Shown one piece after another: positions 48,001 through 51,000 of a DNA stretch of 64,000 nt. Every line of letters starts with the position of its first letter. Positions within the stretch are counted from its first letter, which is position 1. This DNA comes from Candidatus Micrarchaeota archaeon. GTDB lineage: Archaea; Micrarchaeota; Micrarchaeia; Anstonellales; Bilamarchaeaceae. The position numbers were made by a program. Location: contig JBDRPL010000006.1 of NCBI GenBank assembly GCA_043827025.1, positions 14,204 through 78,203 on the forward strand, read 5' to 3'.

Positions 48001-51000
48001 TCTTGGATTATCTACGAGCACAGTATTGATTCCGACCATTATTGCATCATATTCGCTTCTCCAGGAATTGGAAAGCGCCCTAGACTGTGCATTAGATATG
48101 TATTTGGAATCGCCTGTCTTAGTAGCAATTCTGCCATCAAGGGTCATTGCCAATTTCAGCATGACAAACGGTTTTCTTGTCTTTATCCAGTGGAAGAATG
48201 ATTCATTCATTTTATTACATTCCTCGTCTTCTAATATTTTGGCTTCAATCCCCTTTTTCTTGAGTTCAGAAACACTGTTCACCTTTGGGTTCTTGTCTCT
48301 GCACCCTATGATGACCTCTTTGAGCCCAGCTTCAATTATTGCACTGGTGCATGGAGGCGTCTTCTCATAATGTGAGCAAGGCTCAAGCGTCACATAAAGA
48401 GCAGCGCCTTTCAGCTCTTCCTTGTTTTTAACTGATTTTATTGCAGCTATCTCAGCATGGTCTCCGCCGAACTTAGCATGAAATCCTTCTCCAATTATCT
48501 TGCCATTCTTTACAATAACAGCGCCTACTCTTGGATTAGGGGAAGGCCTTGCCTTTTTTGCAAGCTTCAATGCATGTTCTATATATTGGTTAGTCATACG
48601 GGGTCACACTAGATGATCAAGCTTCTCTCTCTTTGTTTTTAAGTATTGCCTATTGTATTGGTTGGGTTTTATTGTAAGCGAGATACGCTCCACTACTATC
48701 CCGTTTTCCTCCAAACCTTTCATTTTGTTTGGGTTATTCGTAAGCAGTTTTATCTTCTTTATCCCAAAATATTCGATTATCTTTGCAGCCACTTTGTAAT
48801 CTCGATCATCACCATTGAACCCAAGTTTTTTGTTTGCATCAACCGTGTCAATTCCATTATCTTGGAGCGAGTATGCCTTTATCTTGTTCGCCAGTCCAAT
48901 ACCTCTTCCTTCTTGATCCAGATAAATAATCATGCCGCCTTCATTCCCAATTTGGGCCATTGAAGCTTCCAATTGCTCGCGGCAATCACATCTCAACGAC
49001 CCAAGCGTATCTCCTGTAAGGCATTTTGAATGGACTCGAACCAGCATTCCCTCTTTCGGTTCTTTGTTTGCAAGTACGATATGTTCGTTATCTTTTTCTT
49101 TGAATGCATATATGCAGAATTCTCCGAATTTAGTGGGAATCTTTGATTTTGCAACGAATTCCATAATTTCATCTCCTTATCTGAGCCTTTGGCAAAGCTT
49201 GATTGCTGCTATCACTGCGTTTCTTGCATATTCTTCTTTCCTTTCTTCTGCCTGTTTTTCATTTGCTCCAGGCCCTATTATGCCTAAGGTTACGGGCATG
49301 TTGAATTCCAGCGACAATCTTGATAATTGGTTTGCAGTTGAGTTCGCAATTACTTCATCGTGTTTTGTTTCTCCTTTGATTACTGCGCCCAGTGTAACAA
49401 TTGCGTCATTCCTTTTATCAAGCAATAACTTCTTTACTGCCAATGGGATGTCAAAACAGCCTGGAACAAAAATGATTTCGCCAATCTCGATTTTGTTCTC
49501 TGTGCAGGTTTTCTTCGCAACATTGACCATAAATTCGGTTATCTCTTTTTCGAATTCACCCACAACAAACCCAAACCTAATCTGTTTCTTCTTTCCCCAT
49601 TCACCTTCATCTTCGAATCCCTGTCTTATTCCTTTTCCAGCCTGTTCGATTAGTTTGTTCGGGTTAAGTATAATGTCAACTGCATTGCAAGTATGTTTTC
49701 TAATTCGATTCTCCGCGATTTTCATCACTTTTTGTTCATTCCATGCTTCAGTTTCAAAGACAAAGACTTCGATTATGTGCTTTCCTGAATTCAATTTTGC
49801 CTGCTGTATTGAAAGCGATGCTTCGTGTGCGCATTGCACATCAATCTTTGCTCCTCCGCCCATTCCCAGAGCCATTGCAATGTCACAGTCTTTCAGCAGA
49901 AGTTGGCATTCCACTGCCAAGTCCTTGAACCCAGGAACAGTCTTCCTTACGATTTGGATTTTGGCATTCGGATATTTTGTTTTGATCTCGTTAATTGCAA
50001 TTTCTCCCATATTCATCCTTGCGAACATCGTATCGATAATGGCGATTTTCATAAGTTTCACCTTATTGTCTTATCCTTCGATTATTTCCTTTCCTTCAAT
50101 CAGCACAAGTTTATTCTTCTCTGCGTACTCTTTGATTTCCTTCTTTGGAAGCGCATTTCCCTTTCCAAGCATCTCGCACAGCACCATCATCTCGATTCCT
50201 GCTCTTTTTCCAAGTTCAAGTGAAAGTTCTGTATGCCCTTTTCTGTTTTCAATTCCTCTTCCAATAAGAAGAAACACATGTCCAGGCGTGTAAAAGTTCG
50301 CAACCAATTCATCTTTCGTTTTGGTTTTTGATATTTCTTTAATTGTAAGCGCTCTATCGTTGTCAGGTATTCCAGTATAAACTCGTTTGTGATTTACAGA
50401 AATCGAAAAGGAGGGTTTATCTCCGTAAGCAGTTCTATTACATTTCATTCCCTTCAGCTTCGAGTTTGAACTCTCTAGGATATCAGCATAGAACTCCAAT
50501 CCAAGCCTGCCTGCCCTTTCCTTAGCCACAGCAAGGCAAATCAGTCCGCCAGCATCTTTTCTAAGTATTTCAACGTATTCAGGCTTTGCAAATTCAGCCC
50601 CAAAAACCAGGTCAGCTTCACCTTCACGCCCATCTCCATCATAGATAAGAATCATCTTGCCTTTTTTCAGTTCTGAGACTGCCTTTTCCACATTATCCAT
50701 AAGTAGATATCTGTTAGTTACTTATTTATAGGTAACTACTAACTTATTGGTAATCGTTCGTACACCTAAATCTTCTTCGTTTTCATCTCAGCAATGAAAC
50801 TGTTTGCCAATTCCTTTAGTCTAGGTTCCCTTGTCTTTTCTATGAATTCCCTTAGCTCGTAGATATGTCCATTCAAACCCTGAGTTGCATGTCCTCTTAT
50901 GCGGGCATCCTTTGCTTCAAGCGCGATCTTAAGCGTTGCCTTTGTTTCTTTTAGTTCAGCAAGGGCATCAACTGCTTCACAGCCTTGGTCTTTGGATTGG

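What a model noticed while it worked through the whole genome (the two positions that open the first line are those of the whole stretch)
49177..50052. Riboflavin synthase fused to lumazine synthase
g306 is one 291-aa chain: archaeal pentameric riboflavin synthase (1-150) joined to lumazine synthase (156-291), the last two steps of riboflavin synthesis. Reading: a bifunctional stacked-pentamer enzyme that channels lumazine from one ring to the other. A natural fusion of these two paralogous pentamers, common in DPANN, seems undescribed and offers a two-layer scaffold for nanocage work.
Evidence so far: N-half matches M. jannaschii RS 2b98 (E 4e-40), C-half LS structures (E 5e-16); two DMRL_synthase domains. 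At least 120 full-length fused homologues at 54-72% identity, named ones from Micrarchaeota and Aenigmarchaeota; both halves conserved in 28 aligned incl. D71, C74 and the TxHD motif H231. It lies in a complete rib operon with no other RS or LS gene. Two paper searches found no such fusion; the archaeal fusion survey does not mention lumazine.
(Added by a program. Inside this text positions count along the whole contig: contig position 14,204 is position 1 of the stretch shown here. "Call 12" and the like, gene names such as g00115 and contig names such as C1 are that model's own, and its searches are not shown. The text may have been shortened before it was handed on; [...] marks where a part breaks off. 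The agent that wrote the report below was given it as the finding of a first reader that could run no searches.)

Follow-up and report, generated by a model that had tools for sequence, protein, structure and literature searches.

The report
Fused archaeal riboflavin and lumazine synthases
The last two enzymes of vitamin B2 synthesis, normally two neighbouring genes in archaea, are joined into one protein in nearly a whole family of small groundwater archaea; both halves look intact and probably stack as two five-membered rings, but whether the intermediate is handed from ring to ring is untested.

Summary
Confirmed. Window 49177-50052(-) encodes one 291-aa chain: archaeal pentameric riboflavin synthase (RibC, 1-150) plus lumazine synthase (RibH, 158-291). 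It is the genome's only copy of either and lies in a ribB-ribCH-ribA-ribD operon with RbkR-type operators. The fusion is not DPANN-wide. It is in 60 of 62 matching genomes of the host's family (probably Bilamarchaeaceae) and 1 of 69 elsewhere in the phylum. Elsewhere ribC and ribH are usually adjacent separate genes, and fusion recurred independently (one clade rejected, p-AU 0.003). The main clade has its own conserved patch (W104; K208-M211-D212-K213), a tight linker and a confident two-domain model (pTM 0.78, against 0.47 for an independent fusion), and it lacks the Aquifex capsid contacts. Best reading: a head-to-tail double pentamer. That geometry puts the lumazine sites on the far face, so true channelling is doubtful (about 0.2). 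Nine paper searches found no RibC-RibH fusion, but one supplement records RibH/RibE fusions in about 0.5% of genomes. The scan's earlier notes hold no such fusion. New variant of a known kind.

The parts
49177..50052 (-). ribC-ribH fusion gene, 291 aa (P0001)
49603..50052 (-). archaeal pentameric riboflavin synthase domain, residues 1-150 (F10, K43, D44, D71, C74, H76, E100, R116, H120, R143-Q144-G145 conserved)
   Evidence: TIGR01506 168 bits; 2b98 E 3.8e-40; model vs 2b98 rmsd 1.2 A; conservation
49582..49602 (-). short linker, residues 151-157, with no in-frame start codon
   Evidence: sequence; RQG-to-Phe distance 23-26 residues in 111 of 118, Met in the linker in 12 of 118
49180..49581 (-). 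archaeal-type lumazine synthase domain, residues 158-291 (F167=Phe22, G227/T229/H231=Gly84/Thr86/His88, R271=Arg127 of 1rvv)
   Evidence: TIGR00114 126 bits; alignment to 1rvv; conservation
49741..49743 (-). W104, invariant in the main fused clade and absent from unfused enzymes; candidate ring-ring contact
   Evidence: 134 of 134 vs 0 of 85 split and 0 of 8 other fusions; 0 of 85 further RS halves
49414..49431 (-). K208-x-x-(M/L)211-D212-K213 patch on the back face of the lumazine synthase domain; candidate docking surface
   Evidence: K213 129 of 130, K208 125, D212 84, M211 82, against 26%, 31%, 4%, 1% in 106 split
50058..50063 (-). ribosome-binding site AGGTGA of the fusion gene
   Evidence: sequence
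50071..50700 (-). ribB, DHBP synthase (supplies the lumazine synthase co-substrate)
   Evidence: TIGR00506 191 bits, over cut-off
48604..49164 (-). ribA, bacterial-type GTP cyclohydrolase II
   Evidence: TIGR00505 230 bits, over cut-off
47533..48597 (-). ribD, bacterial-type bifunctional deaminase/reductase
   Evidence: TIGR00326 324 bits, over cut-off
50718..50753 (-). two adjacent TTAC-N10-GTAA-type operators (one exact, over a TATA-like box; one with one mismatch); predicted RbkR sites
   Evidence: at most one mismatch upstream of ribB in 38 of 55 loci vs 4 of 55 in-gene controls; consensus from PMC5397151 passages; HTH-kinase elsewhere in the genome

Best explanation
A bifunctional RibC-RibH enzyme made by loss of the stop between two adjacent co-transcribed genes, fixed in one Micrarchaeota family and then entrenched by a new interface. 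The C-terminal half condenses the aminopyrimidine (ARAPD) with DHBP to give dimethyl-ribityllumazine. The N-terminal half dismutates two lumazines into riboflavin plus ARAPD, which returns to the first reaction (chemistry: established for both families). Both families build active sites between neighbouring subunits of a five-membered ring, so five chains should form one RS ring and one LS ring on a common five-fold axis (inferred). The clade-specific residues lie at the active-site edge of RS and at the back edge of LS. The stack is therefore most likely head-to-tail, with the LS sites opening on the far face (inferred). It is a discrete particle of about 160 kDa, not a 60-mer capsid (inferred). 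The gain is fixed stoichiometry, co-assembly and proximity; tunnel-type channelling is not required. Shown: one reading frame, conserved catalytic positions, sole copy, operon, distribution, repeated origin. Inferred: activity, oligomer, geometry.
For: Both halves pass curated cut-offs. They are the only RS/LS in the genome, in an operon with conserved operators. LS F167/G227/T229/H231/R271 are kept in 129-130 of 130 and RS K43/D44/D71/C74/R116/H120/RQG in 134 of 134 main-clade sequences. Fused in 60 of 62 matching genomes of the family (checked). Adjacent split genes are the rule elsewhere: 51 of 80 loci, 80 of 80, some in frame with a single stop between. Clade patch and tight linker. AlphaFold pLDDT 94.2, pTM 0.78, ordered linker; the independent fusion P0124 gave pTM 0.47 with residues 141-155 under pLDDT 50. 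Unlinked halves (3+3 copies): score 0.33, best control 0.00, weak support. That mark was reached by 116 of 157 solved complexes and 2 of 215 mismatches, but at 0.60 or under by only 18 of 157 and by both mismatches; runs agree in at least 71% of contacts, partner pLDDT at least 89. Aquifex capsid positions R40/H41/L121/I125 are E185/N186/E265/E269 here; similar substitutions give pentamers (PMC4737204 Table 1); position 269 is E, D or K in 108 of 130.
Against: No experiment. No coordinates or contacts were returned, so the geometry rests on sequence patches and secondary structure only. The two folds differ in alignment depth (120 vs 13 rows). RS and LS are paralogs, so both the pTM and the complex pass could come from ring-neighbour likeness to solved pentamers. 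The three complex runs scored 0.12, 0.42 and 0.33. The patch may be a clade signature: the five closest split relatives share E149 (5 of 5) and K213 (3 of 5). The 'other fusion' group was set apart after seeing that it lacks W104, although the tree places it outside independently. Unfused archaeal LS also often lacks the Aquifex 121/125 pair. Papers disagree on archaeal LS assembly, and I recall, unverified, a capsid report for the M. jannaschii enzyme. The effect of E168 is unknown.
Confidence: 0.62

Rival explanations
1. True channelling: the stacked rings form a closed path (LS five-fold pore into an inter-ring chamber) that delivers lumazine to RS and returns ARAPD, an archaeal counterpart of the Bacillus/Aquifex RS-in-LS cage.
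For: Consecutive steps with a recycled product. Matched five-fold symmetry. The RS active-site edge carries the clade patch and so may be covered by the LS ring. Repeated independent fusion. Bacterial RS/LS cages are described as channelling (PMC13376624).
Against: The LS sites are inferred to face away from RS, and no tunnel was shown. The pathway's enzymes turn over at about 0.02-0.06 per second (PMC13151069), so open proximity adds little (inference). Most archaea searched keep the genes split, and 2 of 62 family members are split.
Confidence: 0.2
2. Near-neutral read-through fusion: two independent rings on a tether, with no functional interface. W104 and the 208-213 patch are inherited clade marks.
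For: The genes are often adjacent and in frame, so one mutation suffices. At least 3 and probably 7-8 changes of state. The independent fusion P0124 models as two unoriented domains. Mutual information gave no clean inter-domain signal.
Against: W104 is invariant in 134 of 134 and absent from 170 of 170 unfused halves. Linker length is tight. pTM 0.78. Near fixation in the family. This reading may still fit the sporadic fusions.
Confidence: 0.2
3. The LS half builds a T=1 60-mer capsid that displays twelve RS pentamers outside (an inside-out heavy riboflavin synthase).
For: LS N- and C-termini lie on the capsid surface and tolerate fusions; that review also says some archaeal LS form capsids (PMC7369331 passages). 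The RS domain is attached at the LS N-terminus.
Against: Capsid contact positions are charged or variable in the fused clade. The F185/L186 pair common in unfused archaeal LS (44 and 55 of 71) is not kept. PMC13376624 section 9 lists archaeal LS among non-cage forms.
Confidence: 0.1
4. One half is catalytically dead, or the frame is an assembly artefact.
For: E168 replaces the usual Asn (4 of 121). No independent read set spanned the junction.
Against: Catalytic positions are invariant, it is the sole copy in the genome, and 134 distinct fused sequences exist.
Confidence: 0.04

Closest known systems
Methanocaldococcus jannaschii pentameric riboflavin synthase RibC (PDB 2B98/2B99; TIGR01506)
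   Same: 51% identity and rmsd 1.2 A over 151 columns; D71/C74 align with D73/C76 (their catalytic role is recalled, not read).
   Different: Here fused to LS; carries W104, where 2B98 has Lys and unfused enzymes never have Trp.
Lumazine synthase RibH (TIGR00114; PDB 1RVV, 1HQK)
   Same: Fold and Phe22/Thr86/His88/Arg127 equivalents.
   Different: Lacks the free N-terminal arm and the Aquifex capsid contacts; has Glu at Asn23; no close archaeal LS among the PDB hits (best 32% identity).
Bacillus/Aquifex RS-LS complex (trimeric RS inside a 60-mer LS cage; PMC13376624)
   Same: The same two steps are brought together physically.
   Different: Non-covalent, uses the unrelated trimeric RS and a C-terminal cage signal. 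Here the link is covalent, 1:1, between two paralogous pentamers, and probably without a cage.
RibH/RibE gene fusions in the survey PMC4921024 (supplement text)
   Same: Riboflavin synthase and lumazine synthase in one gene, in about 0.5% of genomes.
   Different: Named RibE, which in PMC5397151's table is the PF00677 bacterial type. Table S2B, with organisms and domains, could not be seen, so overlap with the RibC type cannot be excluded.

Membership tests
Archaeal riboflavin synthase (RibC, TIGR01506) | Score over the curated cut-off across the whole model | tested here: met
   168.3 vs 100.55, model 1-149 of 151
Archaeal riboflavin synthase (RibC, TIGR01506) | LS-like fold matching 2B98, with conserved F10, K43-D44, D71, C74, R116, H120 and RQG tail | tested here: met
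Archaeal riboflavin synthase (RibC, TIGR01506) | Homopentamer; dismutates lumazine to riboflavin | not testable with these tools
   Five copies exceed the complex tool's size limit; no assay
Lumazine synthase (RibH, TIGR00114) | Score over the curated cut-off | tested here: met
   126.1 vs 84.6
Lumazine synthase (RibH, TIGR00114) | Phe22, Gly84/Thr86, His88, Arg127 equivalents (roles recalled) | tested here: met
   F167, G227, T229, H231, R271; Asn23 is Glu in this protein
Lumazine synthase (RibH, TIGR00114) | Lumazine-forming activity | not testable with these tools
   inferred from sole copy and operon
Icosahedral (60-mer) lumazine synthases | Inter-pentamer contacts R40, H41 and hydrophobic L121/I125 (Aquifex) | tested here: not met
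   E185, N186, E265, E269; archaeal enzymes might use other contacts
Heavy riboflavin synthase (RS encapsulated in LS cage) | Trimeric PF00677 riboflavin synthase with a C-terminal cage signal | tested here: not met
   no PF00677 match in the genome; the RS C-terminus is the linker
Substrate-channelling bifunctional enzymes | Enclosed path between sites, or kinetic sequestration of the intermediate | not testable with these tools
   no coordinates returned
RbkR regulon | HTH-riboflavin kinase plus conserved palindromic operator before rib genes | tested here: met
   binding itself untested

The most novel reading that the evidence does not exclude
The fused protein is a rigid double ring in which the lumazine synthase ring caps the riboflavin synthase active sites and feeds them through its five-fold pore while taking back the aminopyrimidine. 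That would be a covalent, cage-free archaeal solution to the channelling that bacteria get from encapsulation. It would be built from two descendants of one ancient duplication, with tethered-only independent fusions and split sister genes as natural stages.
Probability: 0.2. Interest if true: 0.75.

Novelty: new variant of a known kind. Interest (0 to 1): 0.5.

Why it matters
It gives a natural series for one enzyme pair: split adjacent genes, loose independent fusions, and a fixed fusion with a candidate interface. That series lets one test directly whether joining RS and LS buys channelling, stability or nothing, a question so far posed mainly on bacterial cages. It is also a ready two-layer five-fold building block; the M. 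jannaschii RS pentamer is already part of a designed cage (5IM5). For annotation, sources name these proteins after one half only, so pathway calls in these archaea can miss a step. If no channelling is found, it is an ordinary neighbour-gene fusion and a family marker.

Tried and rejected
Subtracting 14203 from the coordinates: 34974-35849 lies in an unrelated 744-aa gene. 'Common in DPANN': not supported in the loci seen; other DPANN phyla were sampled only through the top hits of three scans. Single origin of all fusions: rejected, p-AU 0.003 (quick tree, LG+G4, 94 rows chosen from the 252 that had both halves). Mutual information between halves: top pairs are variable surface columns, effective depth 78, uninformative. 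Hidden internal start for the LS half: none in this gene; Met in 12 of 118 linkers. G368 and G200 as possible extra fusions: both split. Sequencing runs: no RNA holder listed; contigs of four runs did not span the junction. ESM Atlas: a 72-member cluster named only as lumazine synthase family. A full five-copy model was not possible. A Pfam scan of neighbours failed on a coordinate error and was not repeated. Earlier scan notes: none by sequence or place; none with all words.

Full report
Observation. The ORF lies at window 49177-50052 on the minus strand, which is contig C6 63380-64255; the finding's start and end need no offset. It has an ATG start 5 nt behind an AGGTGA site and translates to 291 aa without a stop. 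Residues 2-150 match TIGR01506 (archaeal riboflavin synthase, 168 bits) and 158-290 match TIGR00114 (lumazine synthase, 126 bits), both over cut-off. PDB hits are 2b98 (E 3.8e-40) and 1rvv (E 4.5e-16). The AlphaFold model (pLDDT 94.2, pTM 0.78, 120 rows) superposes on 2b98 at 1.2 A and on several LS structures at 1.2-2.4 A. These are the only PF00885 matches in the genome and there is no PF00677 match (completeness 91.6%).

Context. The order is ribB, ribC-ribH, ribA, ribD, with ribA and ribD of bacterial type. This order recurs in most related loci. Two TTAC-N10-GTAA-type sites lie before ribB. A site with at most one mismatch lies upstream of ribB in 38 of 55 loci, against 4 of 55 in-gene controls (relatives are not independent). 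The genome encodes an HTH-fused CTP-dependent riboflavin kinase, and this consensus is the one given for RbkR of Thermoplasmata and Thaumarchaeota (PMC5397151, passages). A maintained, regulated pathway is therefore likely.

Both halves look intact. In 121 aligned proteins D71, C74, H76, F97, E100, R116, H120, R143-Q144-G145 and F167, G198, G227, T229, H231, D232, R271 are invariant. Alignment to 1rvv makes F167, T229, H231 and R271 the equivalents of Phe22, Thr86, His88 and Arg127 (their catalytic roles are recalled). The oddity is E168 for the usual Asn, in 4 of 121; its effect is unknown.

Distribution. Of 401 genomes of the host's phylum, 131 matched. In the host's family 62 of 76 matched and 60 of these 62 are fused across the junction (one cut by a contig end); two are split. 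Outside the family 69 of 325 matched and one is fused (G226). I cut out 38 of the other 68 and all are adjacent separate genes. The remaining 30 were judged from the table alone (stops, frame lengths, four with one half only; 27 match rows were not listed). Among named GTDB loci, 6 of 80 were fused, 51 split and 23 LS-only. A scan seeded with an independent fusion gave 80 of 80 split, and one seeded with a Woesearchaeota fusion gave 0 of 25 fused. Several split pairs are in frame with one stop between them. Some records recur between searches, so these counts are not additive. Homologues named Bilamarchaeaceae or Bilamarchaeum fall in the main clade, so the family is probably Bilamarchaeaceae (Micrarchaeota; inference). 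The fusions labelled Aenigmarchaeota and 'ainarchaeum' nest inside that clade: transfer, mis-binning or mislabelling.

Repeated origin. The representative search gave further full-length fusions at 43-50% identity, with both domains over cut-off; one is named Woesearchaeota. On a 94-row tree of both halves, the fused state needs 8 changes (bootstrap 7-8; starred branches force at least 3). One clade of all fusions is rejected (p-AU 0.003). Nine split sequences from the sister family lie within or next to the main clade, so a re-split is possible. A reverse-order fusion (RibH2-type LS then archaeal RS, P0157) exists as a single sequence on one 1.6-kb contig and is unverified.

Architecture (inferred). 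The main clade has conserved residues that unfused enzymes lack. W104 is in 134 of 134 distinct RS halves, against 0 of 85 split, 0 of 8 other fusions and 0 of 85 more. K213 is in 129 of 130, K208 125, D212 84, M211 82. The eight other fusions were set apart after their lack of W104 was seen; the tree agrees. The closest split relatives share E149 and partly K213 but not W104 or M211-D212. From the secondary structure and the parallel sheet of this fold, W104 and the 139-150 tail lie at the strand ends where RS binds substrate. Residues 208-213, 250, 291 and the linker entry lie at the strand starts of LS, opposite its catalytic residues. This points to a head-to-tail stack. The linker is tight (23-26 residues from RQG to the Phe in 111 of 118). 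An independent fusion folded with both domains but a disordered linker and pTM 0.47 (only 13 rows, so the contrast is confounded). The unlinked halves, three copies each, scored 0.33 against a best control of 0.00: weak support. The mark was reached by 116 of 157 solved complexes and 2 of 215 mismatches, but at 0.60 or under by only 18 of 157 and both mismatches; contacts agreed at least 71% between runs and partner pLDDT was at least 89. Likeness to solved pentamers of these paralogs could give such a pass. For a capsid, Aquifex LS needs L121/I125, and R40E/H41E with L121E or I125E gives pentamers (PMC4737204, passages and Table 1). Here the positions are E185, N186, E265 and E269, which argues for a discrete double ring. 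Papers disagree on archaeal LS assembly.

Mechanism. LS makes lumazine; RS uses two and returns one aminopyrimidine. I put bifunctional activity at about 0.93, a defined double ring at about 0.62 and real channelling at about 0.2. In the inferred stack the lumazine must leave the far face or cross the LS pore. With turnover near 0.02-0.06 per second (PMC13151069, passage), open proximity should matter little.

Literature. Nine searches found no description of a RibC-RibH fusion; two searches returned nothing. [quoted passage not shown] The primary papers on the M. jannaschii enzymes and on Bacillus channelling were seen only as reference titles or are recalled. Subscription journals are mostly not covered, and unseen supplements may bear on novelty.

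Verdict. Real and conserved; a new variant of known enzymes. The surprise is moderate, because neighbouring genes fuse easily. The symmetry match, the near fixation with a candidate interface and the natural series of stages make it a good test case. Interest 0.5.

Noticed in passing
window 50718-50753 (-); L153 1486-2139 (-): Conserved tandem RbkR-type operators before the rib operon across related genomes (38 of 55 vs 4 of 55 controls), with an HTH-riboflavin kinase bearing the SQQ recognition motif. This suggests the RbkR regulon extends to Micrarchaeota.
   Followed up: partly
window 47533-49164 (-): Mosaic pathway: bacterial-type RibA and bifunctional RibD with archaeal-type RibC, RibH and kinase; the same set recurs in many relatives.
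   Followed up: partly
P0157: Reverse-order fusion, RibH2-type LS followed by archaeal-type RS; a single sequence on one short contig.
   Followed up: partly
P0133, P0135, P0163, P0214, P0221, P0225, P0233, P0262, P0267, P0271: RS or LS domains joined to 150-250 residues that NCBIfam did not name; real fusions or over-long gene calls.
   Followed up: no
P0168: Near-exact tandem duplication of a bacterial LS in one chain; possibly an assembly artefact.
   Followed up: no
L114 and L115: The two split members of the host's family carry genes that group away from the fused clade, suggesting replacement by transfer.
   Followed up: partly
window 46421-47494 (-) and 50766-51080 (-): Two ORFs (357 and 104 aa) flanking the operon with no NCBIfam match.
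   Followed up: no
window 51080-53651: A dihydroorotate dehydrogenase gene and a probable electron-transfer subunit gene (judged by eye) lie upstream on the same strand, with a 245-aa ORF on the opposite strand between them.
   Followed up: no
residue 237 of P0001 (LS helix 231-250): Lys in 49% of the main fused clade and 0% of split enzymes; unexplained, and possibly near the five-fold pore.
   Followed up: no
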